Source: a virus. From it: a stretch of DNA of 42,668 nucleotides. Position 1 is the stretch's first letter, and each line of letters begins with the position of its first letter. Position numbers and translations under genes: made by a program. This document shows, in pieces, positions 2,079-33,572 of this stretch. The stretch lies in the IMG/VR virus record IMGVR_UViG_3300037419_001219. One strand, given 5' to 3'. The notes below the pieces were generated by a model, which made no database searches, was not told where the DNA came from, and worked only from the letters and a program-made list of their open reading frames with translations.

Positions 2079-2105
2079 GCACTTCCTCAGATAGGACAAA
2101 CACCC

Positions 2106-2756
2106 ATGGCCTTTTTCGATTGGAACGGATCGCAAGCGCGGTCCGACATCAACAGCGCATACAAAAAGGCAAATACGGCGCTCGATACGGGCTACCAGCA
2201 GTCTCAGGGCTACTACGACAAGGCCGCTGGCAATTATGACCCGTATGTCTCATCCGGTGCGCAGGGGCAGCAAACCTATCTCGATCTGCTCGGCCTAAAC
2301 GGAAACGACGCGCGCTCAAGTGCGCAGAGCATGATCACATCCGATCCCTTGTGGACGGGACAGCTTGCATCCGACCAGAACGCAGCTTTGAAAGCGCTCA
2401 ACGCGCGGGGGCTCGGAGCATCGGGAACGGCGGCGCTCGCCGGTCAGCGTGTTCTGGCGCAGAACTACGGCGACGTTCTCAACCGCTACATGGGATTGGG
2501 GCAGGAAGGCCTGCAGGCGGCAGGTGCTCAGGCAGGCGTCTACACCGGACAGGGTGATAACGCATACGGGTTCGGGGCGACGAAAGCCAACAACGCGATC
2601 AACCAGGGCAGCGCTATCAGCCAGACCCGCAATACCGGCCTCAACAACGTGCTGAGCATTCTGGGAACGGGTGCAAAGCTCGCAAGCGCGGCCGGTGGCA
2701 TGCCTCAGGTCGGAAAGCTTCTGCCCGGTGGCTATACCGGCTCAACGACGTACTGA
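2106..2756 (+). CDS. Putative ejection/internal virion protein (P22 gp7-sized slot)
   Basis: 216 aa, Gln/Gly/Ala-rich with low complexity. Its position precedes two larger ejection-protein-sized genes. Confidence 0.5.
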   Translation: MAFFDWNGSQARSDINSAYKKANTALDTGYQQSQGYYDKAAGNYDPYVSSGAQGQQTYLDLLGLNGNDARSSAQSMITSDPLWTGQLASDQNAALKALNARGLGASGTAALAGQRVLAQNYGDVLNRYMGLGQEGLQAAGAQAGVYTGQGDNAYGFGATKANNAINQGSAISQTRNTGLNNVLSILGTGAKLASAAGGMPQVGKLLPGGYTGSTTY

Positions 2757-2778
2757 TCGGTAAGGAGAGCATCCTCTG

Positions 2779-8021: not shown

Positions 8022-8495
8022 ATGCCAAGAGAGCAAGAGACCTTCGTCTGCTACGCGCTCCCTGCCACAGACGCGATACCCTATGAGCATGTCGGTCATT
8101 TCATAGAAGGGGCTGCACCGGAAGGCGCCCGTGTGATCGACGCGACAGAGGCCAAGCGCATCAACGATGATGTGGATTCCAGAACGCCGCCGAAGTCTGA
8201 CATCGGAGCTCAGCTAGCCGCCTCCGTCGATCTGAAACCTCTGTTCGACAAGATCGATGCTCTCTCCAAAACAGTCGTGTCGCAAGCTGAAGCGCTGGAT
8301 GCGGCAACCGCCAAAATCGATGCTCAGGCTCAGGACATTTCTCAAGTCAAAAGCGACACGAAAAAGCAGGCGGACGATATCGATAAAGCTCAGAAGAAAA
8401 TTGATGATCAAGCATCAGACATCTCAAAAGTCAGAGAGAATACCGCCAAAGCCATTGCACAGATGACGGAAGGCATTGGGGAGCAGAAGGCATGA
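8022..8495 (+). CDS. Coiled-coil protein downstream of the fibre (possible fibre assembly or accessory protein)
   Basis: 157 aa. The C-terminal half carries repeated KIDxQAxDISxV heptad-like units. Confidence 0.5.
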   Translation: MPREQETFVCYALPATDAIPYEHVGHFIEGAAPEGARVIDATEAKRINDDVDSRTPPKSDIGAQLAASVDLKPLFDKIDALSKTVVSQAEALDAATAKIDAQAQDISQVKSDTKKQADDIDKAQKKIDDQASDISKVRENTAKAIAQMTEGIGEQKA

Positions 8496-9268
8496 GCGTC
8501 AATGATGAGACAATCCGTCTGAACAAGTCGTTCGAAGGCTATCACAAAAAGCTAGAGAACGGTGATTGCACTGCCTACCAGACGCCGCTTGGCAAAAGCA
8601 AGCTGACCGGGAAAATGCTCTACGACATCCCGACCTGCGGTTACGGAACGACTAAGAACGTCAAGATGGGAATGGTCTGGACGGAAGCCGAGGCGACGGC
8701 TCGGATGATGCAGGACTTGGCCGAAGCAGAAGGCTATGTCCAGCAGTATGTCACCGTTCCGATCAATGAGAACGAGAAGGGTGCTCTGACCCTGTTCTGC
8801 AACAACTGCGGTCCGAAGAACCTTAAGAGACTGGTCAAGCGCTTGAACAAGGGAGATCGCGCCGGGACTGCGAAGGCATTTGCGCTCTACAACAAAGCAC
8901 AGGGCATTGTCCTTGACGGCCTTGTGTCTCGTCGCGCCAGAGAAGCGGCGTTATTCCTCAAGCCGGTAGAGGCGCCGATTGAGCCGGCCATGCCGCAGAC
9001 AGTCCAGAAGCAGCTCGAGCCACCATCCGCACCTGCAGTCGCGGCCGGCGGCGGAGTCCTTTACACGGCATGGCAGTACCTCGGAGACAAGTTCAATTCG
9101 TTCTTCGATGGTCTCGATCAAGAGCAGGCCATGATGCTTCTCGGAACCGCTCAGAAGCACGGCGTCGGCAGTGCTTGGATCAACGTCCTGCTGTGTGCCG
9201 CGGCAGGCGTTGGCCTTTATGTCCTCGTCGGCCATGTGTTTCCGAAACTGGCAGGGAGCAAATCATGA
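8492..9268 (+). CDS. GH24 (T4/lambda-type) lysozyme endolysin with a C-terminal transmembrane segment
   Basis: FEGYHKK..AYQTPLG..TCGYGTT matches the E..GY...Y.D..G..TIGYG lysozyme core. The C-terminus AWINVLLCAAAGVGLYVLVGHVF is hydrophobic. Confidence 0.8.
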   Translation: MSVNDETIRLNKSFEGYHKKLENGDCTAYQTPLGKSKLTGKMLYDIPTCGYGTTKNVKMGMVWTEAEATARMMQDLAEAEGYVQQYVTVPINENEKGALTLFCNNCGPKNLKRLVKRLNKGDRAGTAKAFALYNKAQGIVLDGLVSRRAREAALFLKPVEAPIEPAMPQTVQKQLEPPSAPAVAAGGGVLYTAWQYLGDKFNSFFDGLDQEQAMMLLGTAQKHGVGSAWINVLLCAAAGVGLYVLVGHVFPKLAGSKS

Positions 9269-9510
9269 TCACGGCAGCAGCGGATTTCTTTGGAACGCTG
9301 ATGGGCAAGTTTGCGCTCGGCGGCGGGATCATAGCGACCATCTTCGGATGGCTTCTCATTCACGATCACAGAGTGCGCGTTCAAGAGCGGCAAGCAATCG
9401 AAGAAGGAGCGAAAGCACTCAATGCGAAAGGTCTACAAGCCCGCGCTTCTGTGCGCACTGATGGCGCCTCTGAGCGGCTGCGGCGGCAATACTGCTCTGA
9501 CTGCAAGTAG
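9265..9510 (+). CDS. i-spanin (Rz-like)
   Basis: ATGA overlap with the endolysin stop. N-terminal TM FALGGGIIATIFGWLLI is followed by a charged helical region. The o-spanin gene is embedded at its 3-prime end. Confidence 0.65.
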   Translation: MITAAADFFGTLMGKFALGGGIIATIFGWLLIHDHRVRVQERQAIEEGAKALNAKGLQARASVRTDGASERLRRQYCSDCK

Positions 9511-9661
9511 TCTCTGTGGGGATGGCGCAACGCCCGGTGCCTGGCAACCGATCACGATCTTGAAAGACGACAAGATCACCGATCGAACGTCAGCGAAGAT
9601 TTTGCAGAACAACGAGGCCCGTAAAGTGATCTGCAAAAACAAGGGCGCAGAGCATGGCTGA
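9422..9661 (+). CDS. o-spanin (Rz1-like lipoprotein), overlapped architecture
   Basis: Signal peptide with lipobox LSGC (MRKVYKPALLCALMAPLSGC). It starts inside the i-spanin gene in another frame. Confidence 0.7.
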   Translation: MRKVYKPALLCALMAPLSGCGGNTALTASSLCGDGATPGAWQPITILKDDKITDRTSAKILQNNEARKVICKNKGAEHG

Positions 9662-9962
9662 AGAAACGCAGAACCCTGCAACCCAGGTATCGTCTGGATT
9701 GAGCTCGATGATCACAGGCATCTGGTCTGCATTTGCGACGGCTGCAGGCTCATGGCGCGGACTCATCGGGCTTGCTCTCATACTGCTTTTTGTACTCATC
9801 TATCAGGGGAAACTACCCGTCAAATCAGATAACGCTGAAGTGCTGTCTTCAGTTGCAAATATCCGCAAAGATATTGCTGATTTGAAGGCGATTGTTACGC
9901 GCCAGAAAGACCCTTCAGTTGCCAACAACTATCCGTCAGCAATCGATCCGCCGAGGCCCTGA
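9654..9962 (+). CDS. Holin-like membrane protein
   Basis: 102 aa with two hydrophobic segments (LSSMITGIWSAFATAAGSW and GLIGLALILLFVLIY) and a charged C-terminus. It is the last gene of the lysis cassette. Confidence 0.5.
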   Translation: MAEETQNPATQVSSGLSSMITGIWSAFATAAGSWRGLIGLALILLFVLIYQGKLPVKSDNAEVLSSVANIRKDIADLKAIVTRQKDPSVANNYPSAIDPPRP

Positions 9963-11137
9963 TGTCATCCTATTTGCCGCGCTCGCTCTTCGATCAGGTC
10001 CAGCCGGAAACGGCAGATCCGACCTATCGCGCTTCTATGTTGCCGATCGCGACATACCCGAACGCCGACGGCTCCGGCGAGCATCTCGGCCTTGCGATGC
10101 CTGGCATGATCCAGGAGCCCATGAACGCGTTGATGCGTTTGATAGGAACGCCATCACATCCGGGCACCTTCGGGCAAGGCCCTGACTACGGCTCCAATGC
10201 AGAGGATATGCGAACCTTGCTGGAGACCTTCCTCGGAGGCAACGCCACAAGAGGAATGGGGGCAGTGGAAAGAGGGGCTGTAGAAGCTGCGCCGGCATAC
10301 GTACGCCGAAAGACGATTTACGATGAACCATTGGAACCCGGATCAGCAATCCATAAAACGACGGGAGACAATCAGGACCGCTTTGTCTCAAGATTCAATA
10401 GCGGAACGCAGAATTACGATGCGCAAGGCCGTTTCAGTCCAGATGGAACAGCTTACGTCCAGTGGATGGGGCCGGAACCCGGTTCTCCATTTTCAGCTGA
10501 CAGTTCGTTGAGCCGATCGGATTTTCGCAAGTGGCGAGATAGTTTTCTCGCGGCCTATCCCGACGTTCAGGCGTTCTCTGGGACTCGGATCAGCGGCGCC
10601 AAGATGGTGAACAACGCTGCGGATCGAACGCAAGCATTTCCAGCGCTGTTCTCGGATAACCTCCCCTCTCTCCCAGGAGCTGTTATAGCAGGGGCGGAGA
10701 AACAGCCATTCAATCCGACAGAGTTTCGGTTGGCCGATCTCATGCCAGGACAGTCTATCCATGCAGCGCCTTATCCCCATGACCCATCTCAATTCGTAAG
10801 CAGGTTCAATCACGGCGGAAACAATTATGAGGCATCGGGCCATATCGAGGATGGAACCGCGCACGTCGGGTGGATTGGAAGTACTACCGCTCCGTTCGGA
10901 AGCGCGGCAAACACGTTAGGAAGACCTGCTCTGAGACAATGGAGAGATAGCTTTTTAGAACAGTTCCCAGACGTAAAGTCGTTTTCGGGCGAGCGCATAA
11001 GTGGGTCTAGAGCAACAGAGGACGGAAACTATCCTGTCCAAACCGTATCCGCTCTTTTCTCAGACGGCCTCCCCTCTCTCTGGGGATCAGCCCTTCAACC
11101 CCAACAGCAATATCCAAACTCTCTCTTCCGGTACTAA
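9962..11137 (+). CDS. Hypothetical protein with an internal tandem duplication of a ~100-aa module
   Basis: aa 141-240 and 278-377 align by eye: FVSRFNxGxxNYxAxG..DGTAxVxWxG ... (R)xWRDSFLxxxPDVxxFSGxRISGx ... ALFSDxLPSLxG. Confidence 0.6.
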   Translation: MSSYLPRSLFDQVQPETADPTYRASMLPIATYPNADGSGEHLGLAMPGMIQEPMNALMRLIGTPSHPGTFGQGPDYGSNAEDMRTLLETFLGGNATRGMGAVERGAVEAAPAYVRRKTIYDEPLEPGSAIHKTTGDNQDRFVSRFNSGTQNYDAQGRFSPDGTAYVQWMGPEPGSPFSADSSLSRSDFRKWRDSFLAAYPDVQAFSGTRISGAKMVNNAADRTQAFPALFSDNLPSLPGAVIAGAEKQPFNPTEFRLADLMPGQSIHAAPYPHDPSQFVSRFNHGGNNYEASGHIEDGTAHVGWIGSTTAPFGSAANTLGRPALRQWRDSFLEQFPDVKSFSGERISGSRATEDGNYPVQTVSALFSDGLPSLWGSALQPQQQYPNSLFRY

Positions 11138-14852: not shown

Positions 14853-15929
14853 TCAATTGAGAAGTATCTGTTTTCCTTCACTGTTTGTCGCCGAGTCGTT
14901 CACGGGTCCGGGTACCGAGGTACCAGTGGTGCACCTTATTTCCAGAGCCGTCGCCGCCTCCCGCAAATAGGCGGGATGAAAACGAGCGTAGTGTTTGCGC
15001 GTCGTCTCAATCGACGTGTGCCCCATAAATTCGGCGATGCGCTCCATCGAGACGCCTGCCTGGGCCATGTAGACGCCCGCTGTGTGTCGCAGGGTGTACT
15101 GGCTAACCCCAACGAGCCCGGCGCGCTTGGCGGCCGCCTTAACCCCGTTCCGGATGCTTTTTATCGGCCGGCCATCGACCTCGATGACGTGATCACAGGT
15201 CTTGACCTTGGAAGCCGTCTCGAGCTTCTCCAGCAACGTGGCGTTGATCGGAACGCGGGCGCGGCCCTTCTGCGTCTTGAACCGGGTCGGGTCGTCCAGG
15301 TTGACGATGCGGCGCGCGAGATCGACTCGCGGCCAGGTGAGCTCAAGAATGTGCTTCGGCCGGCCGGCAGTGGTCACAGAAAGGATGATGAACAGCTTGA
15401 CGTGCATCATCATCGCGCCGTCTATCAGAGCAAGCAGTTCTTCCATCGTCAGCCAGCGCTCGCGAGGGCGGCCCTGAGGCGGCTTGGCGATCTTCGGTGC
15501 CTTGTCGATGAGCTTGGCCTCTACGGCCCAATTCAGGGCGGCGGTGATGTATCCGAGGTCGTTCCTGATACCGCCGTTTGAGCATCCCATGGCCGTCCTG
15601 ATGGCGACGAACCGTTCGACTTGTTTCTCGTCGATCTCGGCGGCGGTCAGATCGCCCCAGATCGGTGCCAGCGTGCGGCCGACTTCCTTGATGCGGGTGA
15701 TGTTGACGACTTTGCCTTTCCGGTTCGCTTCGTACTTGTCGTAGATCATAGCGAGCGTGAGCCGCTCTGGCAGCTTCAGCCTTTCGGCCTCCCGGTTGAG
15801 GTCGCGGACAAAGCTTTTTGCATCCTCGACTTCCTGGATAGGCGCGACACGGCGGACGCGATCATTTGCTTTTCCGGTGACGGCACACCACTTCCCACGG
15901 TGCTTCCCAAGTCTCCACACGTCTTGCAT
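14853..15929 (-). CDS. int: Tyrosine recombinase / phage integrase
   Basis: The C-terminal block LRHTAGVYMAQAGVSMERIAEFMGHTSIETTRKHYARF matches the R..HxxR..Y catalytic region. Adjacent to the tRNA fragment. Confidence 0.9.
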   Translation of the reverse strand: MQDVWRLGKHRGKWCAVTGKANDRVRRVAPIQEVEDAKSFVRDLNREAERLKLPERLTLAMIYDKYEANRKGKVVNITRIKEVGRTLAPIWGDLTAAEIDEKQVERFVAIRTAMGCSNGGIRNDLGYITAALNWAVEAKLIDKAPKIAKPPQGRPRERWLTMEELLALIDGAMMMHVKLFIILSVTTAGRPKHILELTWPRVDLARRIVNLDDPTRFKTQKGRARVPINATLLEKLETASKVKTCDHVIEVDGRPIKSIRNGVKAAAKRAGLVGVSQYTLRHTAGVYMAQAGVSMERIAEFMGHTSIETTRKHYARFHPAYLREAATALEIRCTTGTSVPGPVNDSATNSEGKQILLN

Positions 15930-26233: not shown

Positions 26234-26379
26234 CCGGCCACAAGTTCCAACTGAAAGGCTTCCGCATCAACAAGAAGACCGGACTTCCGGAGAGGATTCC
26301 GAACTTCGGTTTGAATAAGTCAGCCCAGCTCAAACAAAGATCCAGCAAGCGTACGCGTCCGATGAAAAGGAAACCGTGA
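26230..26379 (+). CDS. 49-aa basic micro-protein
   Basis: ATGA coupling to the upstream stop, high GC3. Part of the ORF-track entry 26086..26379. Confidence 0.5.
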   Translation: MTGHKFQLKGFRINKKTGLPERIPNFGLNKSAQLKQRSSKRTRPMKRKP

Positions 26380-26864
26380 TGGATACGACGAAAGCTGAAC
26401 TCGTGACACGAAAGCATATGCAGCGGGTGTCCGCCTTGTTGGGCGAGGCGGCCTGCGAGATCATCCGGCGCGCCGCAGCCCATGACCTATCGAAGCTGAC
26501 GCCCGTCGAACTGGAGCCTCTCCAGAAGATGCAGGATCTCATCGATAGCGAAGGCCAGGCGCCGTTCGGCAGTGAGGAATACCAGCGCCGGACAAGGATG
26601 CTGGCACCCATGCTCGCTAACCACTACCAGAAGAACAGCCACCATCCTGAGCACTACCCAGATGGCGTCGATGACATGGACCTGTTCGACCTCATCGAGA
26701 TGTTCTTCGACTGGAAAGCCGCCAGCGAACGAGGAGAGGAAAGCTCGATGAATATTTCTGTCGCGGCGGTTCGGTTTAAATTGTCTCCGCAGCTCGAAAG
26801 CATCTTCCGGAATACGGCTTTTCGTCTCGGATACAAAGCTGACTCTTCAGCGAAGGCCGCTTGA
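26376..26864 (+). CDS. DUF5662-like HD-type protein
   Basis: AAHDLSKL ... NSHHPEHYPDGVDDMDLFDLIEMFFDWKAASERG closely follows the recalled DUF5662 pattern HD.SK ... HHPEHF..gi..M.l.DL.EM..DW.AA..R. Confidence 0.6.
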   Translation: MMDTTKAELVTRKHMQRVSALLGEAACEIIRRAAAHDLSKLTPVELEPLQKMQDLIDSEGQAPFGSEEYQRRTRMLAPMLANHYQKNSHHPEHYPDGVDDMDLFDLIEMFFDWKAASERGEESSMNISVAAVRFKLSPQLESIFRNTAFRLGYKADSSAKAA

Positions 26865-26880: not shown

Positions 26881-27360
26881 ATGGAAGACGCAGCACTTTC
26901 ACCGACGCGCGAACAGCTTCGCCGAGACACGTACGAAAGCCCACAGGTAGACCAACAGACGAACCGGCGCGCATGGCGCAAGCTCTCGACATTCGACCAG
27001 CTCTACCGCCGCAATGAGATCGAGTATTCGCAGTTCCGTTCGGCTGAGAAGCTCGAACAGCACTGGATGGGTGCCCAAGGACACGACGTCCGCCTTTCCC
27101 ATGAAGAGGGAGGCTCAGGAGAGCGCTTGGAGTTCCCCAGGTCGTATCATGCCCAGATGGTGGAGAAAGCCCGTAGGCAGCTTCTGCCTCGGGAATGGCT
27201 TGCGTTGCAGTGCTTGCTTGAGGATACAGACGATCTTGCTGGCATCGGCCGGAAGTGGCGGGCCATAGGAACGCAGAAGATCGCGCGAGCGCAGGGGCTG
27301 CTTTTGGTGTCGCTCGGACTTGAGCGGCTGGCAGTGCATTGGGGGTTCGTAAAAGCGTGA
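26881..27360 (+). CDS. Hypothetical protein at the end of the early-right operon (possible late-gene regulator)
   Basis: 159 aa with an HTH-like C-terminal helical region. The position is analogous to lambdoid Q. No motif-level support. Confidence 0.5.
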   Translation: MEDAALSPTREQLRRDTYESPQVDQQTNRRAWRKLSTFDQLYRRNEIEYSQFRSAEKLEQHWMGAQGHDVRLSHEEGGSGERLEFPRSYHAQMVEKARRQLLPREWLALQCLLEDTDDLAGIGRKWRAIGTQKIARAQGLLLVSLGLERLAVHWGFVKA

Positions 27361-27384
27361 GGGCGAGCCCGAAGACCCGCCCTC
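27359..27384. terminator. Bidirectional terminator between convergent genes
   Basis: GAGGGCG (27359-27365) pairs with CGCCCTC (27378-27384). TGATTT follows on the plus strand and CGCTTTT on the minus strand. Confidence 0.5.
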
Positions 27385-27392
27385 TGATTTGC

Positions 27393-28397
27393 CTAAGCCC
27401 TGAGAGCGATCCTCAGTTGCTTGCCGACTTTCGTCAGCTGAAGGTGAGGCTCGATCTCTTGCCGCAACCGGCTGGCAGCGCCTTCGTCTATACCGAGCAA
27501 CTGAGACAGTTCCCGGTGTGAGTTGACCGAGCCGCCGTTTGCTTCGATTGCCTTCCACACCCGGTGTTCGTGAAGATCAATGACACCCTTGCCGATCTCA
27601 GGCTTACGTTTGCCTTTGGGAGGCTCTGGATCATTGTCGATGTCTTCGACAATCGTATTTCCATGAGTCAAATCAACGGCAAACGAACGGCAATCGTTGT
27701 CGGCAACTAAGACCCTCTTGCCTTGCCGGAACGCAAACCCGAACGCGACAATCGAACCGACTTCGAAGAACAGGGTCTTAGCGAATGGGATCAGCAACAC
27801 AAGCGCGCCGACGATTTGCTCTTTTGTGCCGGGAGAGTGAAAAAGCAGGGCTATTTCAGCCATTGCTTCGGCTTGAGCGTTGACGGGCTTTGCAGGTCCG
27901 ATCTTCGCAATATCCCGGTCAATGGAGTCGATCTTGGCTTGAACGTCGCTGCTGTTTTGTTTCCATTCCTGGCAGCGTGTCTTGCAGTTTTTCATTTCCT
28001 TTTGGACCTGGGCATCAGCGTAGTCGCGGCGAGCGACGGCCTTCGCACGTTCCGTCTTGAGCTCCATCAATTTGTCGTTGGCGTCTTCGACAGAAAGCGT
28101 AGTGATGCCTTGCGTTTCAGCTTGGCGGCCGACCGAAGAATAAACGACCAACGTTGTTCCAGAGAGAAACACTGCGAGACAGCCTACAGCCGTCAAGATA
28201 TGGCGCGCTCGCCCAGCTTCAGCCATGAGATGCCCGAAAGCTATGGTGATTGCGACGTATAGGATCGACAGCCATTGACTGGACTGCCAATGCATCGGGG
28301 ACGTCAGCTCTTTGTCGAGGAGGATGGTCAATCCGCCAGCTGCCGAAGCAACCCCCGCCACAAGGGCGAGGGCGCGACCTTTCCAGGAGTCGTTCAT
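27393..28397 (-). CDS. 334-aa membrane protein: 3 TM, coiled coil with a Cys pair, C-terminal TM region, then a wHTH-like tail
   Basis: ATG at 28397 preceded by GAGGAAGGA. TMs are ALALVAGVASAAGGLTILL, WLSILYVAITIAFGHLM and ILTAVGCLAVFLSGTTLVV. Coiled coil spans about aa 100-190 with CKTRC. Then IVGALVLLIPFAKTLFFEVGSIVAFGFAF. Confidence 0.65.
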   Translation of the reverse strand: MNDSWKGRALALVAGVASAAGGLTILLDKELTSPMHWQSSQWLSILYVAITIAFGHLMAEAGRARHILTAVGCLAVFLSGTTLVVYSSVGRQAETQGITTLSVEDANDKLMELKTERAKAVARRDYADAQVQKEMKNCKTRCQEWKQNSSDVQAKIDSIDRDIAKIGPAKPVNAQAEAMAEIALLFHSPGTKEQIVGALVLLIPFAKTLFFEVGSIVAFGFAFRQGKRVLVADNDCRSFAVDLTHGNTIVEDIDNDPEPPKGKRKPEIGKGVIDLHEHRVWKAIEANGGSVNSHRELSQLLGIDEGAASRLRQEIEPHLQLTKVGKQLRIALRA

Positions 28398-28513
28398 CGG
28401 CCAATTCCTTCCTCGATAGACTGCTCGACGAGGAGGGAAACGACGGCGATGGCGCCCACAAGAATAACGGGAGCCAGACTTGCCAGTAACACAATCAGAG
28501 CTAAAGTAGACAT
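28394..28513 (-). CDS. 39-aa single-TM micro-peptide, ATGA-coupled to the 334-aa gene
   Basis: Not in the ORF track. MSTLALIVLLASLAPVILVGAIAVVSLLVEQSIEEGIGR. AAGGA upstream. Moderate GC3. Confidence 0.4.
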   Translation of the reverse strand: MSTLALIVLLASLAPVILVGAIAVVSLLVEQSIEEGIGR

Positions 28514-28591
28514 CGTGAAAGTCCTTTCTTGAGATGGGATGGATTGTCACCAGCCCCGGGACCGTTGACGCGGTTGGCCGGGGCACTTGCT

Positions 28592-28663
28592 TACAATCAC
28601 AATATATACATATGTAATTACGTACGCAAGGGGATTGACATTATTTTTCTACATATGTAATTA
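28592..28663. promoter_or_regulatory. Back-to-back promoters, each carrying a TACATATGTAATTA box
   Basis: Plus strand: TTGACA (28635-28640) N17 TAATTA (28658-28663). Minus strand: TTGCGT N17 TATATT. Identical 14-bp boxes lie at 28607-28620 and 28650-28663, 43 bp apart. This is the AT-richest patch of the window. Confidence 0.65.
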
Positions 28664-28670
28664 TCGTGTC

Positions 28671-28850
28671 ATGAAAGACACAGAGCCACGAGGGCCTGGG
28701 CGCCCTAAGAAGTTCGAAGCGCTTGAGAGGATTCAGGTTTTGGTGCTTCACGAGCAGCACGAGGCCGCGAAAGGCGAAGCTGCTAAGCGGGGGATATCGA
28801 TCTCAGAGGTCTATCGAGATTGGATCGACAAGGGGAGAAAGAGAAAATGA
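28671..28850 (+). CDS. Ribbon-helix-helix regulator with an N-terminal AT-hook-like motif; probably leaderless
   Basis: MKDTEPRGPGRPKK carries a GRP core. IQVLVLHEQHEAAKGEAAKRGISISEVYRDWI shows strand-helix-helix. The ATG lies 7 nt after the -10 box and has no SD. Confidence 0.6.
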   Translation: MKDTEPRGPGRPKKFEALERIQVLVLHEQHEAAKGEAAKRGISISEVYRDWIDKGRKRK

Positions 28851-28948
28851 GCGAGACAGAGATCTTAATCGCGTTCGCCATATTTTTTGCAGGCATGCGT
28901 TACGGCGTGATGATCGCCCTCCCTAACCCTCCGAAGGAAGACAAATGA
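28847..28948 (+). CDS. 33-aa single-TM micro-peptide
   Basis: Not in the ORF track. ATGA coupling at both ends. MSETEILIAFAIFFAGMRYGVMIALPNPPKEDK. Confidence 0.4.
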   Translation: MSETEILIAFAIFFAGMRYGVMIALPNPPKEDK

Positions 28949-29160
28949 GCCCGTTCGAGACGCTTATTTTGGTGATTGGGGCGTACTTTCTCGGAAAGCG
29001 GAGCGGGCGATGTCGCGCTCAGGTGACGAGCTATCCCATCCAGCAGCCAACAGTTTCTATGCCGCCTCTTGATACTCCGCAGATGCGGCACATCCTGACA
29101 GGTCAGCTCGCCCCATGGCAGATTGAAATGATGAAACGTGACTCTCCCGCCACTTCCTAA
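28945..29160 (+). CDS. 71-aa N-terminally anchored membrane protein
   Basis: ATGA coupling. TM segment FETLILVIGAYFLG. Confidence 0.5.
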   Translation: MSPFETLILVIGAYFLGKRSGRCRAQVTSYPIQQPTVSMPPLDTPQMRHILTGQLAPWQIEMMKRDSPATS

Positions 29161-29633
29161 AATTGCCTGAACATTCCTTTTCTTGCTGCCTATTGACCTT
29201 CGGTCCCAAATCACCGCATTGAAAGTGTATGGTGGCGTTCCTGCGCGAAGGGAACCGCTGCGCCAAATCCAAACAATTCCAATCCCCGCTGCCGTGACTG
29301 TCTCCTGACCCGGGACTGCCACGACATACGTGCTGGCGCCCGATCCTTAGCCATGGATGCGCGGCGGCGGGGTAATCCATTCTGACCGGAGCCCTGCAAG
29401 AGGGCAGGAACTAACAGGCCCTTAAACCAGCGCATATCGCGCTTTGGGATGGGTGCGTCCTTCAACGACCGGTCAGACCCCAAACCTGTAGCCGCGTCGC
29501 GCCGGGCTGCTTCCCTCGCTTAAGCGCGATGTTGTGCCGTGAAGAGCCCAGGCCCGGGCCTCGTGCGGAAGGCGACAGGTCCCTTATTCGTAACCAGTCC
29601 GAAAATTCACCCTTCCCCCAGGGAGATAGACTC
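29161..29633. other. 473-bp spacer with no credible ORF, dense in hairpins and palindromes
   Basis: No plus-strand ORF of 60 aa or more. The minus-strand ORFs are Arg-rich and mutually overlapping. Stems lie at 29235-29258, 29353-29380, 29393-29408 and 29429-29443. Palindromes are CGCTTAAGCG (29517-29526) and AGGCCCGGGCCT (29550-29561). Confidence 0.5.
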
Positions 29634-30794
29634 ATGTCAGATTCTGCAATGCCCGCCCGTCCGGGGCTGATCCCGGCTATTGCCAGTCTGTTCGGATTCG
29701 TGACCAAGCCTGCGTCGCGGATCAATCTCGATAAGATCGCGATAAGTCTGGTGTTCTTCGCCGGCATCGTCACCATCCTGAAGAAAAACGGCGTTGAATT
29801 GCCGAACTTCATGGTTCTTTTCGGTGTCTCTCTCGGCATCGCCGGTTTGCTTTACGAAATGAGCGCTTCCCGCGCCATGATGCGCGCCTGGTGGGAAGCC
29901 AAACCCTTCTCGATGTTCTGCAATGTGGCCATTTGGGGAGCCGCTTTCTCGTTCTCAATCTTTAATTGGATCGGTGCAGCGGCGGAGGGCCAAGCCGAAA
30001 AGACCAACATGCAGAAAGCCGCCTATGTCCATTCGGAAGACGCTCGCACGGCGCTTTCGATGGCCCAGGAGGCCCTGAAGCAGGCCCGTGCAGCAGCCCA
30101 GGAGAAGCACAACGCGGCTTGGGAAACCATCCCGCTCGTGCAGGGTCAGAAGATCACCGACCGGGCCCAGGCGCAGGCTATGATCGACAAGATCAAGTCC
30201 AATACCCGCTTCTGGGAATTGACCGACGGTTGCGTCACGACCAAAGGCCCGCAGACCCGCAAATTCTGCGGCGATTACAACGATGCAAAGGCCGCACTCG
30301 CCTGGGCCGATACGCATCCTGCACTCATCGACGCAGCGAACGATGCCGATCAAGAGGTCAAGCGACAGGAGCGCGAAGTCGCCAAGGCGCGATCTCTTGC
30401 TTCCACGACTGCAGTTGTCACCTCCGACGAGCGCGCTGATCTCTTCATGCTGACCGATTGGGGCGGCATGTCGGAATCGCGCGCTCAGCAGCTGACGGGA
30501 TTGATCTCGGTTCTCGTGATCTCGATCTTCCTGTCGTTCGGCTCGATGCGGGAAGAGGCGGCGCACCTTTCGACGCTTGGCCCCCGCCGCAAGTGGTCGT
30601 TCTTCTCGCGCGGCTATCGCTGGGTGCATCGCCGGTTGTGGGGAACTGACCCGGACCACATTACCTACAATACGACCTACGTCGATCCACGAGGTGCTGA
30701 AGCTCTGGACGCGCACGAGAAGTTCAAACGGCAACTCGTAAGCAATGCGCAGCGTACTCGCGAAATCCTCGGTGTTGATGCGGTGCCAGCATGA
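29634..30794 (+). CDS. 386-aa membrane protein: 3-4 TM, long coiled coil with a Cys pair, C-terminal TM
   Basis: ATG at 29634 preceded by GGGAG at 8 nt. TMs include IAISLVFFAGIVTIL, FMVLFGVSLGIAGLLY and FCNVAIWGAAFSFSIFNWIG. The coiled coil carries CVTTKGPQTRKFC. Then LTGLISVLVISIFLSFGS. Confidence 0.65.
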   Translation: MSDSAMPARPGLIPAIASLFGFVTKPASRINLDKIAISLVFFAGIVTILKKNGVELPNFMVLFGVSLGIAGLLYEMSASRAMMRAWWEAKPFSMFCNVAIWGAAFSFSIFNWIGAAAEGQAEKTNMQKAAYVHSEDARTALSMAQEALKQARAAAQEKHNAAWETIPLVQGQKITDRAQAQAMIDKIKSNTRFWELTDGCVTTKGPQTRKFCGDYNDAKAALAWADTHPALIDAANDADQEVKRQEREVAKARSLASTTAVVTSDERADLFMLTDWGGMSESRAQQLTGLISVLVISIFLSFGSMREEAAHLSTLGPRRKWSFFSRGYRWVHRRLWGTDPDHITYNTTYVDPRGAEALDAHEKFKRQLVSNAQRTREILGVDAVPA

Positions 30795-30958
30795 ATCTCA
30801 ACCAAATCGACATCAGGCAACTGACGCAACTCGCGGGCAAGATCCTCATCGGTATCGGGCTCGCGATGTTCTATTTCAACCTCAACATCGGAGTGGAGAT
30901 GTTTGCCCATCCCGGTCTTGAGATTGCCGTCTCCGGCTTTCTGTTGAAGAGCATCTAA
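30791..30958 (+). CDS. 55-aa membrane micro-protein
   Basis: Not in the ORF track. ATGA coupling to the 386-aa gene, high GC3. Contains ILIGIGLAMFYF. It ends 1 nt before the tailspike start. Confidence 0.55.
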   Translation: MNLNQIDIRQLTQLAGKILIGIGLAMFYFNLNIGVEMFAHPGLEIAVSGFLLKSI

Positions 30959-30959
30959 C

Positions 30960-33572
30960 TTGGCGCTTTCGCTCAAGCACAAGTTCATCAATGCGCATCC
31001 AGACGGGCCAGACGCGACGCTCGTTCGCCCGTCGAATTGGAATGACGAGCATGATCTCATTGTCAGTTCCGGCAAAGTTATAGGGAGAACGTCTCCGGGC
31101 TCTGGAGCCGCAGAGGAAATCGATATTTCCTCTTTGTCATCAGGCGGAAACGTTTTCCTTCCAGAAACCTATGGCGCCGTTGGAGATGGCGTCACGGAAG
31201 ATCAGGACGCAATCCAGGCTGCCATAAACGCGGCGTATGCCGCTGGCGGTGGAAAAGTTGTCCTGAGTAACAAGACCTATGCCATTGGTCTGACAAGTGA
31301 GACGACAACGGTTATCGGCGCTGCAGCAGGAGGCGGGACGGGGCTTTTTTATGCACTGCGCATGCGAAATAACGTTGTTCTGGAGGGGCAGGGCCGCGCA
31401 ACGCAACTTAAGCGGGTCGACGCCAATGTCATTCTATGCTTTGCGATAGACGAAACGAGTTATGCGCAAGCCCGGAACTTCTACCTCAATGCCAATTACA
31501 CCGCCCTTCCGCATCCGACAATTCAAAGCGCCCCCGGTGGGGTCGAGATCAACAGCGCATCTCATACCGTTGGATCGTATGATCGGCACATCGAAGTCGA
31601 GAACGTCTGGATCGAAGACACTGGCGGATACGGCGTGGGCGTTCAGTGGGGAAATAACGTCGATATCACGCTGCGGAATATCTTCACAAAGAACACGGGC
31701 GCCGATGGCATAGATATAAAATCCAGACAACCGCCGCAAACGACGCCTGCGCACGATGTTCGCAATATCCTTCTAGAAAACATCCATATCGAAAATTTCG
31801 GGCTGTTTGTGAATGACGTGAACGTTGGTGACCAGACAGGTCTCGACATTCGCGGCAAGGGCGTCATTGCAAACAACATCTTCGTTCGTGGCTTCGGCTC
31901 GCAAGCAAGCTGCGGCATACGCTTTCGTGTTGACGGAGGCTCTGGAAACGGTGGTGGCTATAAGGCGCAGCTGAGCAACTTCTTTATCGAGCGCGTATCC
32001 GGCGGATACAACGACCAGCCGAACGGCCTCGAGATCGATTGCGGCGACACCAACATTGTGAACGGCGTCGTTAAAGACTGCTATGTCAACGTCAACGCTG
32101 TCATCTCGCACGCGATTGAAGACAACGCCCGTCAATCCGTTACCAACGTTAAGTCGATAGGAGCCAGCGGCTTTACGACGAAAGGTTTCAACGTCGTAGA
32201 CGGTAATTCAGAAATCGATTTTGTCGCCTGTTCACACAGCGGAGACGGCGCGGGTTGGACGATCGCTGGCGACAACTGCCGACTATTCGGTCCAATCCAC
32301 AACGGATCTGGCGCCGGCATAACGATTGCGTCAACTGCCGATGGAACGCAGATTTACGGGCCAGCATTCACGGGCTCGCCGTCTTCGACGATAACGGACG
32401 GCGGGACGAACACGCTAATCTTGGGAAGCCCTGATAATACGTCGGATAAGCTGCCAGGCCGCTTGACGGTTGGGGCAAGGATATTGCGTGACAGTAACTT
32501 TTATCTCGACTTATCGACCGGCAATCCATTCATAAGCTTCGACAGCAACGACATACTTTACTACGATAGAACAAACAACGTTTTCTCGTTTATCATTGGC
32601 GGCACAAGCAAAGGGCTGCTGAACACAAACGCGTTGTCTCCTGCGTCCAATGATGGGTTAGCGCTTGGTACGATAAGTCTGGGTTGGTCGGACTTATTCA
32701 TCGCAAGCGGTGGACTTCTCAACTGGGCGAATGGCGACGCCGTTCTCACCCATTCAGCGGGCGTGCTCAACGTTACCACTGGCGACCTTCGTGTAACGAC
32801 ACCGGGCACGAATTCGGCTTCTGTCGCTACGGTCGGAGGAACGCAAACTCTTACGAACAAGACGCTGACGACGCCGGTAATTTCGCAGATTTCGAATATC
32901 GGCACCCTCACGCTGCCGACTTCTAGCGATACTCTTGTCGGCAGGGCGACAACGGACACGCTCACCAATAAAACCCTCACGTCGCCAACGATTACCGCGC
33001 CAAAGATCACAGGCGCCGCCGTCATCGGATCGACTACGGCATTTACAGGTGGAGCGGGAACGCCAGCAGTGGCCGTGAGTGGGCTCGTCGGAACGGTCAA
33101 CGGTTACTTCGCCAACGACAGTAACCCCGTCATCATCGAAAGTATTAAATCGCGCAATGCGACTGTCGGATCACACACAGTCGTTCAAAATAACGACAGC
33201 ATCGCTGAGTGGCGCGTTGAGGCCTCGGACGGTACCAATTTCATACGCCTAGGGCAGATGCGTTGGAGCGTGGACGGGACGCCCGGCACAAACGACATGC
33301 CGGGACGTATGGGAATTTTCACGACACCAGACGGTGCCTCAACGCCTCTTGAGCGGTTCCGTTTAGACAATAAGGGCAACGTCATCAACAACCCGAGCGG
33401 CTCGGCTTTGTCGACGAGCGCGACGGACGGCTTCACATATATCCCGACGTGTGCTGGCGCCCCCACAGGAGTGCCGACGTCCTATACCGGCGCCGTTCCC
33501 ATGGTCTACGATACGACCAACAACAACTTCTACATTTACAACGGGGCTTGGAAAAAGGTTCTTCTCTCCTAA
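30960..33572 (+). CDS. Tailspike / depolymerase-type receptor-binding protein (pectate-lyase-like beta-helix) with C-terminal fibre repeats
   Basis: PETYGAVGDGVTEDQDAIQAAINAAYAAGGGKVVLSNKTYAI is the pectate_lyase_3 N-terminal signature. TLTNKTLTxPxI units repeat later. TTG start. Confidence 0.75.
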   Translation: MALSLKHKFINAHPDGPDATLVRPSNWNDEHDLIVSSGKVIGRTSPGSGAAEEIDISSLSSGGNVFLPETYGAVGDGVTEDQDAIQAAINAAYAAGGGKVVLSNKTYAIGLTSETTTVIGAAAGGGTGLFYALRMRNNVVLEGQGRATQLKRVDANVILCFAIDETSYAQARNFYLNANYTALPHPTIQSAPGGVEINSASHTVGSYDRHIEVENVWIEDTGGYGVGVQWGNNVDITLRNIFTKNTGADGIDIKSRQPPQTTPAHDVRNILLENIHIENFGLFVNDVNVGDQTGLDIRGKGVIANNIFVRGFGSQASCGIRFRVDGGSGNGGGYKAQLSNFFIERVSGGYNDQPNGLEIDCGDTNIVNGVVKDCYVNVNAVISHAIEDNARQSVTNVKSIGASGFTTKGFNVVDGNSEIDFVACSHSGDGAGWTIAGDNCRLFGPIHNGSGAGITIASTADGTQIYGPAFTGSPSSTITDGGTNTLILGSPDNTSDKLPGRLTVGARILRDSNFYLDLSTGNPFISFDSNDILYYDRTNNVFSFIIGGTSKGLLNTNALSPASNDGLALGTISLGWSDLFIASGGLLNWANGDAVLTHSAGVLNVTTGDLRVTTPGTNSASVATVGGTQTLTNKTLTTPVISQISNIGTLTLPTSSDTLVGRATTDTLTNKTLTSPTITAPKITGAAVIGSTTAFTGGAGTPAVAVSGLVGTVNGYFANDSNPVIIESIKSRNATVGSHTVVQNNDSIAEWRVEASDGTNFIRLGQMRWSVDGTPGTNDMPGRMGIFTTPDGASTPLERFRLDNKGNVINNPSGSALSTSATDGFTYIPTCAGAPTGVPTSYTGAVPMVYDTTNNNFYIYNGAWKKVLLS

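What the first reader, a model, noticed from the sequence alone, without database searches (positions are those of the whole stretch)
27393..30958. Self-regulated divergent membrane module: two distantly similar 3TM/coiled-coil/TM proteins, three micro-peptides and an AT-hook/RHH regulator
A block with its own promoters lies between the early-right operon (closed by the bidirectional terminator at 27359-27384) and the tailspike. Leftward it encodes a 39-aa TM peptide ATGA-coupled to a 334-aa protein. Rightward it encodes a leaderless RHH regulator, a 33-aa TM peptide and a 71-aa TM protein (all ATGA-coupled), then a 473-bp spacer, a 386-aa protein and a 55-aa TM peptide. The 334-aa and 386-aa proteins share an unusual layout: three N-terminal TMs, a G(R)QAE(T/K) motif right after TM3 (VGRQAETQG vs AEGQAEKTN), a ~100-aa coiled coil holding one Cys pair (CKTRC vs CVTTKGPQTRKFC), and a final TM (FFEVGS vs LSFGS). 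The 334-aa protein also ends in a wHTH-like tail. I cannot place either protein in a characterised holin, Gtr, Sie or Abi family. A lysogen-expressed envelope-acting system (superinfection exclusion, abortive infection or surface conversion) is plausible but is inference.
Basis: partly seen in the sequence, partly recalled or inferred. Interest (0 to 1): 0.78.

Follow-up and report, generated by a model that had tools for sequence, protein, structure and literature searches.

The report
Membrane-tethered DNA-binding phage module
A temperate P22-like phage carries a conserved, locally regulated cassette of two related inner-membrane proteins from an undescribed superfamily, one of which has a DNA-binding domain tethered to the membrane; what the cassette does is still untested.

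Summary
All seven ORFs, the ATGA overlaps, the 3TM / long soluble loop / TM4 layouts, the Cys pairs and the C-terminal winged helix are in the sequence.

The 334-aa protein (fam1) and the 386-aa protein (fam2) are true distant homologues. hhalign of a diverse fam1 profile against fam2 gives probability 95%, E 4.5e-8, over 200 collinear columns. Controls score 27 or less against 60-65 for the real pair.

Neither protein hits Pfam, PHROGs, NCBIfam, PADLOC, PDB or 50,697 GenBank phages. Fam1 is still a large family: 681 clusters at 50% identity. Its relatives carry interchangeable C-terminal HTH domains (MarR, IclR, Crp and others).

The conserved core is two gene pairs, 39-aa peptide + fam1 and fam2 + 55-aa peptide, plus a divergent leaderless small regulator. 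That regulator's palindromic operators sit in the spacers of two back-to-back promoters. The 33-aa and 71-aa ORFs and the RHH sequence are variable cargo.

Fam2 lies behind a conserved structured leader and is probably a separate unit. The lysis cassette is elsewhere.

Best reading: fam1 is a new architecture of transmembrane DNA-binding regulator, and fam2 is a paralogue without the DNA-binding domain. The cassette's role is inferred to be envelope-linked regulation or exclusion. Nothing about function has been tested.

The parts
27359..27384 (-). Intrinsic-terminator-like hairpin closing the leftward p39-fam1 unit. It may also stop the early-right operon.
   Evidence: On the - strand it forms an 11-bp GC stem with a UUCG loop, -23.6 kcal/mol, z -3.1, followed by ACGCUUUUAC. 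On the + strand it is weaker, -15.3 kcal/mol.
27393..28397 (-). fam1, 334 aa. Layout: 3 TM, a periplasmic helical hairpin with C138-x3-C142 at the tip, TM4 carrying E212 (invariant across the diverse fam1 alignment), a disordered Pro/Lys-rich linker, and a C-terminal winged helix.
   Evidence: The profile search finds 681 representative clusters. There is no Pfam hit for this protein itself.
28394..28513 (-). p39, a single-TM micro-protein translationally coupled (ATGA) to fam1.
   Evidence: Homologues lie directly upstream of fam1 in 11 loci, including Hyphomicrobium sp. MC1. The hydropathy peak is 2.85.
28553..28584 (-). Conserved GC-rich hairpin in the presumed 5'UTR of p39-fam1: CCCCGG, 18 nt, CCGGGG.
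   Evidence: -27.6 kcal/mol, z -3.3. It is present, with a changed inner stem, in L005 and L007. Its function is unknown.
28601..28629 (-). Putative leftward promoter: -35 TTGCGT (28629-28624), 17-nt spacer, -10 TATATT (28606-28601). Operator copy O1, TACATATGTA, lies at 28607-28616 in the spacer.
   Evidence: Read from the sequence. It is below the scan tool's threshold because the -35 matches only 3 of 6. The palindrome occurs only twice in the genome, against 0.14 expected. The mirror-image arrangement with the rightward promoter was picked up as inverted repeat I1. L007 has the same design.
28635..28664 (+). Rightward promoter: TTGACA, 18 nt, (TG)AATTAT. Operator copy O2 lies at 28650-28659. 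The predicted start is at the ATG of the RHH gene, giving a leaderless mRNA.
   Evidence: The same -10 / 6 nt / ATG geometry is seen in L002, L005 and L007.
28671..28850 (+). 59-aa regulator with an AT-hook (PRGPGRPKK) and a probable ribbon-helix-helix.
   Evidence: The best matches are weak: ParG at E 0.056 in Pfam and 0.73 in PDB, both covering the beta-alpha-alpha core. Relatives at the same position carry faint or weak RHH_5 or RHH_10 hits. L014 has an HTH protein there instead.
28847..29160 (+). p33 (28847-28948, one TM) and p71 (28945-29160, weakly hydrophobic N-terminus). Both are ATGA-coupled and are variable cargo.
   Evidence: No homologue in any other locus except the identical contig. 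Other phages carry unrelated small genes in this slot.
29284..29372 (+). Conserved structured element in the 473-bp spacer: a closing stem of 11-13 bp, and an internal 16-mer GTCTCCTGACCCGGGA. Probably the leader of the operon that starts with fam2.
   Evidence: -49.1 kcal/mol, z -3.9. It is conserved in relatives and some pairs show compensatory changes. There is no Rfam match. In L014 and L019 other genes lie between it and the fam2-type gene.
29634..30794 (+). fam2, 386 aa: a paralogue of fam1 without the DNA-binding domain. Layout: 3 TM, a ~176-aa periplasmic helical domain with C200...C213, TM4, and a basic 81-aa tail.
30791..30958 (+). p55, a hydrophobic micro-protein coupled (ATGA) to fam2.
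   Evidence: Conserved at 45-47% identity next to fam2 in 9 loci. A similar 53-aa gene lies upstream of fam2 in L005, and a 64-aa one follows the fam3 gene in L014.

Best explanation
The block is an accessory cassette of a temperate P22-like podovirus. It is built around two paralogous inner-membrane proteins of an undescribed superfamily.

Shared core. N-terminus in the cytoplasm, three TM helices, then a long periplasmic helical hairpin whose tip carries a conserved C-x3-C (or C-x12-C) pair, then a fourth TM. Each paralogue has its own translationally coupled micro-TM partner (p39 for fam1, p55 for fam2).

fam1. After TM4 there is a ~55-residue disordered Pro/Lys-rich linker and a cytoplasmic winged helix. 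That makes fam1 a transmembrane DNA-binding regulator. It follows the ToxR/CadC/TcpP logic of sensor and DNA-binding output in one membrane protein, with a periplasmic Cys pair and a small membrane partner. The architecture, however, is new.

fam2. It has the same sensor and membrane core without the DNA-binding output. I infer that it modulates fam1 or acts alongside it.

Local control. p39-fam1 and the small regulator's operon start from back-to-back sigma-70-type promoters. Each promoter has one copy of a genome-unique palindrome in its spacer. The leaderless RHH/AT-hook protein most likely represses both, giving a burst on entry and then a low, capped level.

Shown: anatomy, homology, conservation, synteny, operator layout, wHTH fold.
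Inferred: topology, DNA binding, repression by the RHH, and the biological role. I take the role to be coupling an envelope cue, such as another phage attacking, to DNA-level control or exclusion.
For: - TM layout and charge bias; AF2 models.
- The wHTH matches ArsR/MarR/PagR/AspA at Foldseek probability 1.0.
- At E<=0.1, 34/141 diverse fam1 relatives hit MarR_2, 29 HTH_23, 23 HTH_Crp_2 and 19 HTH_IclR, always at the C-terminus. The membrane core stays constant while the DNA-binding domain is swapped.
- fam1 and fam2 are homologous.
- Cys motif invariance.
- p39 and p55 are conserved next to their partners.
- The divergent-regulator design recurs in at least 7 different contexts, with operators that change with the regulator.
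- The palindrome occurs only twice in 42.7 kb, both copies in promoter spacers.
- fam1 has its own terminator.
- The RHH/p36/fam1 trio stands alone in Hyphomicrobium MC1, in a region with BstA_C, DUF3987 and SSB genes. An RHH + fam1 pair (no upstream small TM ORF seen) lies in a MAG island with Fic, resolvases and SLFN/AlbA_2. So it works without the phage's lytic genes.
- The operational definition of a transmembrane transcription regulator (a DNA-binding domain plus at least 1 TM) is met (PMC10269533).
- From my own knowledge: ToxR, TcpP and CadC each have a functionally important periplasmic Cys pair and a membrane partner.
Against: - No DNA target for the fam1 winged helix was found. The operators co-vary with the small regulator, not with the fam1 wHTH.
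- The fam1 model is only moderate: mean pLDDT 64.5, with the TM core at 52-75.
- Some family members lack a recognisable HTH, for example P0092.
- A winged helix can also mediate protein contacts.
- Expression timing is unknown.
- Polar residues in or next to the TM helices (fam1 H56 and R91, invariant in the close-homologue alignment; fam1 E212; fam2 E75) would also suit a channel or effector.
- fam2 has no output domain, and its position in the genome varies.
Confidence: 0.4

Rival explanations
1. SieA-like superinfection exclusion. The two paralogues and their micro-partners sit in the inner membrane of the lysogen or freshly infected cell. Their periplasmic hairpins block the ejection-protein conduit of incoming related podoviruses. 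The fam1 winged helix only autoregulates, or it holds the incoming DNA end.
For: - The position mirrors P22, where (from my own knowledge of the map) sieA and the mnt/arc RHH switch lie next to the tailspike gene. P22 SieA is a 3-TM inner-membrane protein that blocks the gp20/gp16 conduit (PMC10883804).
- The phage is P22-like: P22_portal, tailspike.
- fam1 has its own promoter and terminator, like a moron.
- fam1 occurs in islands with defence-type genes: BstA_C, SLFN/AlbA_2, Fic.
- The fam2 slot is filled by very divergent versions in close relatives (L014 fam3, L015), as expected under an arms race.
Against: - No similarity to any PHROG, Pfam or PADLOC family, including annotated exclusion proteins.
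- The proteins are twice the size of SieA and have a different layout.
- A DNA-binding domain has no precedent in exclusion proteins of this type.
- The cassette seems universal in this phage group rather than sporadic. In P22-like phages only 22 of 66 carry sieA.
Confidence: 0.25
2. Rex- or Kiwa-like abortive infection. The four-TM core is a gated ion path, and the winged helix senses foreign or replicating phage DNA at the membrane. Opening the path depolarises the cell.
For: - Conserved polar residues in or next to TM helices: fam1 E212 is invariant across the diverse alignment, and H56 and R91 across the close homologues; fam2 E75 and R84 are invariant in the fam2 alignment.
- A DNA-binding domain is fused to a membrane core.
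- Tight repression by a local regulator would fit a toxic product.
- Island neighbours include abortive-infection genes.
Against: - No PADLOC hit.
- No similarity to RexA/B or KwaA/B in the libraries searched.
- The conserved polar positions are not shared between fam1 and fam2 in the profile alignment.
- The periplasmic Cys-tipped hairpin has no role in this model.
Confidence: 0.1
3. Lysis-timing device (holin/antiholin-like, or lysis inhibition). fam2+p55 are the first genes behind a late leader and control when the membrane is permeabilised.
For: - fam2 follows a conserved structured leader and precedes the tailspike and terminase genes. In lambdoid phages that slot holds lysis genes.
- Small TM partners and a periplasmic Cys-bearing domain recall antiholin or spanin themes.
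Against: - A lysis cassette lies elsewhere: endolysin PF00959 at 8492-9268, an i-spanin-like ORF ending at 9510, a lipobox o-spanin-like ORF at 9422-9661, and a 102-aa TM protein at 9654-9962.
- fam2 is in the early-right operon in L009 and L010.
- fam1 occurs in islands without lysis genes.
Confidence: 0.05
4. Virion-associated or morphogenetic role. fam2, made with the tailspike, is an internal or ejection protein or a tail-assembly factor.
For: - Two weak BFVD fold matches are labelled 'internal virion protein' (E 0.013 and 0.13).
- fam2 is next to the tailspike in most relatives.
Against: - The top BFVD matches are unnamed proteins, and the labelled ones are weak.
- Four TMs plus a TM partner fit a cell-membrane resident.
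- Unassigned large proteins at 979-6551 already fill the P22-type ejection-protein slot.
- fam2 has an early-operon location in L009 and L010.
- fam1 is on the other strand with its own signals.
Confidence: 0.05

Closest known systems
Transmembrane transcription regulators (TTRs: ToxR, TcpP, CadC and the broad class surveyed in PMC10269533)
   Same: - A DNA-binding winged helix and TM segments in one polypeptide.
- A flexible linker between the membrane and the DNA-binding domain.
- A periplasmic domain with a conserved Cys pair.
- A small membrane partner (compare ToxS and TcpH).
- The class definition, a DNA-binding domain plus at least 1 TM, is met.
   Different: - The wHTH is C-terminal and MarR/ArsR-like, not an N-terminal OmpR-type domain.
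- There are four TMs, not one.
- The periplasmic part is a helical hairpin between TM3 and TM4.
- It is phage- or MGE-borne and comes with a paralogue lacking the DNA-binding domain.
- There is no sequence similarity to any TTR family.
- Transcriptional regulation has not been shown.
Phage P22 immI region and sieA (mnt/arc RHH switch, ant, sieA next to the tailspike gene)
   Same: - A small RHH-type regulator at divergent promoters with palindromic operators, next to the tailspike gene of a P22-like phage.
- An inner-membrane accessory protein close by.
   Different: - There is no antirepressor.
- The regulator is leaderless and carries an AT-hook.
- The membrane proteins are unrelated to SieA (162-164 aa, 3 TM) and twice its size.
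- The genome position differs: here between the early-right operon and tailspike/terminase.
Pfam DUF4407 (PF14362), uncharacterised membrane proteins
   Same: It is the only non-HTH Pfam family that recurs among fam1 relatives: 11 of 141 at E<=0.1, best E 2.8e-4.
   Different: - The window proteins and all 35 fam2 members give no hit.
- The matches are below Pfam's thresholds.
- DUF4407 itself has no known function; it gets only three incidental mentions in the paper library.
Lambda RexA/RexB and Kiwa KwaA/KwaB (a membrane component plus a DNA-binding component in prophage or host defence); phi29 p16.7 (membrane-anchored DNA-binding protein). All recalled from my own knowledge.
   Same: They link a membrane-embedded part to DNA recognition in phage-host conflict or phage DNA handling.
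   Different: - Those systems are two-protein, or single-TM proteins with other folds.
- No homology was detected in the libraries searched.
- Here both parts are fused in one chain.

Membership tests
Transmembrane transcription regulators (broad class, PMC10269533) | Contains a DNA-binding domain | tested here: met
   Foldseek gives probability 1.0 and rmsd 2-3 A to ArsR/MarR/PagR winged helices over ~60 residues. Relatives give MarR_2, MarR, IclR and other Pfam hits at the same position.
Transmembrane transcription regulators (broad class, PMC10269533) | At least one transmembrane region in the same protein | tested here: met
   Four hydrophobic segments by hydropathy, matching helices in the AF2 model.
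Transmembrane transcription regulators (broad class, PMC10269533) | Regulates transcription while membrane-bound | not testable with these tools
   No target site was identified. This needs EMSA, ChIP and reporter assays.
ToxR-like receptor family (ToxR/TcpP/CadC) | N-terminal OmpR-type wHTH, single TM, C-terminal periplasmic sensor | tested here: not met
   Here the wHTH is C-terminal and MarR/ArsR-like, there are four TMs, and the sensor hairpin lies between TM3 and TM4. There is no Trans_reg_C hit.
P22 SieA-type superinfection exclusion | Sequence or profile similarity to SieA-type or other annotated exclusion proteins | tested here: not met
   No PHROG or Pfam family at E<=0.1 apart from one unnamed, insignificant match. 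No tblastn hit in 50,697 phage records, which should include the P22-like phages. P22 SieA was not compared directly.
P22 SieA-type superinfection exclusion | Small (~160 aa) 3-TM inner-membrane protein that blocks DNA injection | tested here: not met
   The size and layout part is not met: 334 and 386 aa, four TMs, large periplasmic hairpin, against 162-164 aa and 3 TM for SieA. Whether DNA injection is blocked cannot be tested here.
Pfam DUF4407 (PF14362) | Match to the family HMM at or above the gathering score | tested here: inconclusive
   The window proteins give no hit at E<=0.1. 11 of 141 fam1 relatives hit at E<=0.1, best 2.8e-4. 0 of 35 fam2 members hit.
Arc/Mnt/ParG-type ribbon-helix-helix regulators | RHH fold recognisable by profile | tested here: inconclusive
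   ParG is the best hit in both Pfam (E 0.056, 14 bits against a cut-off of 21.4) and PDB (E 0.73). It covers the beta-alpha-alpha core.
Arc/Mnt/ParG-type ribbon-helix-helix regulators | Palindromic operators overlapping the regulated promoter(s) | tested here: met
   Two copies of TACATATGTAATTA, 43 bp apart, each in a promoter spacer next to the -10. They are unique in the genome.
Known anti-phage defence systems (PADLOC-DB 2.0) | HMM match of any module protein | tested here: not met
   0 families for the 9 proteins scanned (7 module ORFs and 2 upstream genes) at E<=0.1.
Holin/antiholin/spanin lysis cassette | Linked to the endolysin, with matching family hits | tested here: not met
   The endolysin, spanin-like genes and a TM candidate lie at 8492-9962, about 20 kb away. 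The module proteins have no holin or spanin family hits.

The most novel reading that the evidence does not exclude
fam1 and fam2 define a new class of phage- and MGE-borne trans-envelope signalling device. A disulfide-tipped periplasmic hairpin detects an event at the envelope, for instance another podovirus building its ejection conduit, or envelope or redox stress. It relays this directly to a membrane-tethered winged helix. That domain then switches phage genes (immunity, induction or late genes) or seizes incoming DNA. The paralogue without the DNA-binding domain, made from the lytic operon, acts as its built-in antagonist.
Probability: 0.2. Interest if true: 0.8.

Novelty: new variant of a known kind. 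Interest (0 to 1): 0.55.

Why it matters
Membrane-anchored transcription factors are known in bacteria, but they are essentially unstudied in phages.

This one belongs to a large family (681 clusters at 50% identity) seen only in uncultured phages, prophages and mobile islands. It has a constant sensor and membrane core and interchangeable DNA-binding heads. That is the pattern expected of a specificity-swapping regulatory or immunity device.

If it couples envelope events to phage gene control or to exclusion, it would be a new route by which prophages sense the outside world. It would also give names to two protein families that currently have no annotation in Pfam, PHROGs, NCBIfam or PADLOC.

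The compact control region would be a useful regulatory part in its own right. It consists of a leaderless RHH and mirror-image promoters, each with an operator in its spacer.

Tried and rejected
Searches that found nothing informative:
- Pfam, PHROGs, NCBIfam and PADLOC on the module proteins.
- PDB profile searches with A1 and A2.
- Foldseek against PDB for both models. Only the wHTH of fam1 matched meaningfully; the cores gave generic coiled-coil or ABC-transporter noise at E>0.02.
- Foldseek against BFVD for fam2. The significant hits (E<=0.001) were all unnamed uncultured-phage proteins.
- megablast of the block, and tblastn of both proteins, against 50,697 phage records: no match.
- Rfam on the whole window and on the block.

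Tests that were too insensitive:
- BLASTP between the two proteins, and the narrow fam1 and fam2 HMMs against each other's members, showed no similarity. The diverse profile was needed.

Leads not confirmed:
- DUF4407. Ten of the longest and most divergent fam1 relatives were scanned and none hit it. fam2 members do not hit it either.
- Literature searches for DUF4407 and for phage membrane-bound wHTH proteins gave nothing specific.

Readings rejected:
- The module as the lysis cassette, because the endolysin and spanin-like genes are at 8.5-10 kb.
- The operators belonging to the fam1 wHTH, because they change with the small regulator while the wHTH stays the same.
- The spacer element being fam2-specific. 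It is absent upstream of fam2 in L005, L009 and L010, and it is separated from the fam2-type gene by other genes in L014 and L019.

Limited result:
- The genome-contig scan returned only 5 loci, so the taxonomic range is poorly sampled.

Full report
SETTING

The window looks like a complete, circularly permuted genome of a temperate P22-like podovirus.
- It encodes a P22-type portal, large and small terminase, a DnaB helicase and a CI-like HTH/S24 repressor.
- It has a tyrosine integrase at 14853-15929(-) and a phage lysozyme at 8492-9268.
- It has a major head protein and a head-closure protein.
- The tailspike at 30960-33572 carries a pectate-lyase-like domain.
- GC content is about 57%.

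The block under study lies between the last early-right genes and the tailspike. Those genes are DUF5662 at 26376-26864 and an unassigned 159-aa ORF at 26881-27360. No GenBank phage resembles the block at the DNA level. Homologues of the 334-aa protein occur in Hyphomicrobium genomes and MAGs. A Hyphomicrobium-like alphaproteobacterial host is therefore likely, but this is inference.

THE OBSERVATION

Membrane layout:
- fam1 (334 aa) has TM segments at 9-27, 43-61, 67-85 and about 195-223, a 109-residue loop between TM3 and TM4, and a 111-residue tail.
- fam2 (386 aa) has TM segments at about 30-50, 56-77, 92-110 and 287-305, a 176-residue loop and an 81-residue basic tail.
- The short basic loops and the basic stretch right after TM4 fit N-in, loop 3-4 periplasmic, tail cytoplasmic. 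This is inferred from the positive-inside rule.

AlphaFold2 models built with family alignments:
- fam1: TM3 runs on into a long helix, turns at residues 135-139 and returns, giving a helical hairpin. C138 and C142 sit at the tip. TM4 follows, then a disordered stretch at 222-272, then a winged helix at 279-332 (mean pLDDT 64.5).
- fam2: the model is similar with a larger helical domain (mean pLDDT 73.7).
- The fam1 tail matches ArsR/SmtB, MarR, PagR and AspA winged helices with Foldseek probability 1.0 and rmsd 2-3 A.

Minor corrections:
- p71 has only a 12-residue hydrophobic start.
- The RHH assignment rests on weak ParG matches.
- The terminator hairpin at 27359-27384 is convincing on the minus strand only.

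BOTH LARGE PROTEINS BELONG TO REAL, CONSERVED, UNNAMED FAMILIES

- fam1 has at least 173 close homologues. By full HMMER search it has 681 representative clusters at 50% identity.
- fam2 has 41-61 homologues.
- None of the proteins listed carries a precomputed Pfam domain or any name other than 'hypothetical protein'.
- In the close-homologue fam1 alignment, invariant residues include G55-H56-L57 in TM2, G90-R91-Q92 after TM3, C138 and C142, a GP..P.N motif, and P204/E212 in TM4. Across the 141 diverse relatives only C142 and E212 stay invariant.
- In fam2, invariant residues include E75, R84, W112, E118, N125 and C200.
- A C-x3-C motif (CGxRC in fam1, CKSKC in most fam2) is found in 28/28 fam1 and 21/35 fam2 members. 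The window's fam2 subgroup has C-x12-C instead.

THE TWO PROTEINS ARE PARALOGUES

BLASTP and narrow HMMs see nothing. The narrow profile pair gives hhalign probability 50%, E 1.6e-4. This already exceeds 26 reversed or locally shuffled controls: score 35-39 against 24.5 or less.

With a profile of 141 diverse fam1 representatives, the match to fam2 rises to probability 94.9%, E 4.5e-8. It covers 200 collinear columns from TM1 to TM4 and places the Cys motifs in register. Controls again stay at 27 or below. The same HMM finds fam2-type ORFs directly at E about 2e-5.

The closest relative phage (L014) has a third, very divergent member in the fam2 slot: 346 aa with CGPRC, followed by a 64-aa partner. 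It matches both profiles. The three form one superfamily.

WHAT IS CONSERVED AROUND THEM

In seven or more distinct phage contexts the same design recurs. These are the window, L002-4, L005/6, L007/8, L009, L014, L019 and L020.
- A fam1 gene with a 36-39-aa TM peptide coupled upstream points away from a small DNA-binding regulator.
- A fam2-type gene with a roughly 55-aa hydrophobic partner lies further on, mostly just before the tail fibre or spike gene.
- The regulator changes type: different RHH proteins, or an HTH protein in L014.
- The small genes after the regulator are unrelated from phage to phage. The window's RHH, p33 and p71 have no homologue in any other locus.
- In L009 and L010, fam2 sits in the early-right operon instead.

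In Hyphomicrobium sp. MC1, the RHH/p36/fam1 trio stands alone in a region with BstA_C, DUF3987 primase and SSB genes. In a proteobacterial MAG, an RHH + fam1 pair lies in an island with Fic, resolvases and a Schlafen/AlbA_2 ATPase. No fam2 is present in either. The fam1 cassette is therefore an autonomous accessory unit.

THE CONTROL REGION

The 157-bp intergenic region holds two exact copies of TACATATGTAATTA, 43 bp apart. Each contains a perfect 10-bp palindrome found nowhere else in the genome, against 0.14 expected.
- One copy fills the spacer of the rightward promoter TTGACA-18-AATTAT. Its predicted start is the A of the RHH ATG, so the mRNA is leaderless.
- The other copy fills the spacer of a mirror-image leftward promoter, TTGCGT-17-TATATT, read from the sequence.
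- The same geometry, with different repeats, is seen in L002, L005 and L007.
- The repeats change with the small regulator while the fam1 winged helix stays nearly the same between the window and L002. The operators therefore most likely belong to the small regulator, which would repress both promoters. This is inference.

That layout recalls P22 immI, where (from my own knowledge) Arc and Mnt act at divergent promoters beside the tailspike gene.

fam2 IS PROBABLY A SEPARATE UNIT

The 473-bp spacer contains a conserved element of about 90 nt at 29284-29372. It has a long closing stem, -49 kcal/mol and z -3.9. It is conserved in relatives, with some compensatory pairs, and is unknown to Rfam. 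In L014 and L019 other genes lie between it and the fam2-type gene. It is missing where fam2 sits elsewhere. It looks like the leader of the operon that continues into the tailspike and terminase genes, not a fam2-specific signal.

WHAT IT IS NOT

- It is not the lysis cassette. The endolysin, an i-spanin-like ORF, a lipobox o-spanin-like ORF and a 102-aa TM protein lie at 8492-9962.
- It is not a known defence system.
- It has no detectable relative in isolated phages.
- The only recurrent non-HTH Pfam signal among fam1 relatives is DUF4407, in 11 of 141 at E<=0.1. DUF4407 is itself uncharacterised. The link could not be firmed up.

HOW IT MOST LIKELY WORKS

The decisive feature is the C-terminal domain. 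Among 141 diverse fam1 relatives, the tail is recognised as MarR_2, MarR, IclR, Crp-type, GntR, TrmB, HTH_23 or HTH_36, while the membrane core stays the same. A constant sensor and membrane module with interchangeable DNA-binding heads is the signature of a regulator family with changing specificity.

fam1 meets the operational definition of a transmembrane transcription regulator: a DNA-binding domain plus at least one TM (PMC10269533). It shares three further traits with ToxR, TcpP and CadC (from my own knowledge): a flexible linker, a periplasmic Cys pair and a small membrane partner. It fails the ToxR-family layout, because the wHTH is C-terminal and there are four TMs. It is a new architecture, not a member of that family.

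I therefore read fam1 as a membrane-tethered DNA-binding protein whose periplasmic hairpin senses something at the envelope. fam2 is a paralogue without the output domain that modulates fam1 or works alongside it. The RHH is a local repressor that caps expression.

The biological role is open. Exclusion of related podoviruses at the inner membrane, as P22 SieA does (PMC10883804), is the main rival and is not mutually exclusive. A Rex- or Kiwa-like abortive mechanism, lysis timing and a virion role are less likely, for the reasons given under the rival explanations.

VERDICT

The finding is real and well described, and the paralogy and the winged helix are now supported by computation. Function is unknown. 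Novelty lies at the level of an undescribed protein superfamily and a new transmembrane-regulator architecture on phages and mobile elements. No mechanism has been demonstrated.

Noticed in passing
window 29284-29372 (+): A conserved structured element of about 90 nt in the spacer before fam2. It has a closing stem of 11-13 bp, -49.1 kcal/mol and z -3.9. Its 16-mer GTCTCCTGACCCGGGA was found in 10 IMG/VR contigs. There is no Rfam family. It may be the leader or antitermination site of the operon that runs into the tailspike and terminase genes; relatives encode a NusG-like protein upstream.
   Followed up: partly
window 28553-28584: A GC-rich hairpin (CCCCGG, 18 nt, CCGGGG) in the presumed 5'UTR of p39-fam1. 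It is kept in L005 and L007 with different but still complementary inner stems. It is neither a terminator nor an operator copy, and its role is unknown.
   Followed up: partly
L014 1286-2520 (-), and L015 7444-8664 (-): In the closest relative phage the fam2 slot holds a third, very divergent superfamily member: 346 aa with CGPRC at the hairpin tip, plus a 64-aa two-segment hydrophobic partner. L015 has another divergent member. The slot evolves fast while fam1 stays 74% identical.
   Followed up: partly
L009 2598-3659 and L010 8001-9062: In these phages fam2 lies in the early-right operon, shortly after the cro-like and HTH genes, rather than before the tail fibre. L009 keeps a divergent fam1 (297 aa, E 3e-16 to the fam1 profile) at the usual place after the NusG-like gene.
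   Followed up: partly
window 8492-9962: Lysis cassette after the tail genes. The endolysin (PF00959) has a hydrophobic C-terminal segment. It is followed by an i-spanin-like ORF (ending at 9510), an overlapping lipobox ORF (MRKVYKPALLCALMAPLSGC, 9422-9661) and a 102-aa TM protein (9654-9962) that may be the holin.
   Followed up: no
window 9962-11137 (+): A 391-aa protein with no family hit. It consists of two internal repeats of about 150 aa (SRFN.G..NY.A.G...DGTA.V.W.G ... WRDSFL..(Y/F)PDV..FSG.RISG). It lies between the lysis genes and the leftward early region, in a moron-like position.
   Followed up: no
window 535-628 (+): ARAGORN calls a 94-nt tRNA-Gly(GCC) inside the ORF (230-979) that matches head-closure protein Hc3. 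It is probably a false positive.
   Followed up: no
window 28830-28850; L002, L005, L007, L014, L021, L022 regulator genes: All the small regulators, whether RHH or HTH, end in a basic tail (KGRKRK, RRKRK, KQKGRK). The tail coincides with the purine-rich Shine-Dalgarno sequence and the ATGA overlap of the next gene. It probably reflects a translational-coupling constraint rather than a protein motif.
   Followed up: no
L021 (Hyphomicrobium sp. MC1, FQ859181.1 1896587-1917561): A stand-alone RHH/p36/fam1 cassette sits at the edge of an integrated element that carries BstA_C (abortive infection), a DUF3987 primase-helicase, SSB and a Peptidase_S78-like gene. The same genome encodes a second fam1 copy (P0100).
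   Followed up: partly
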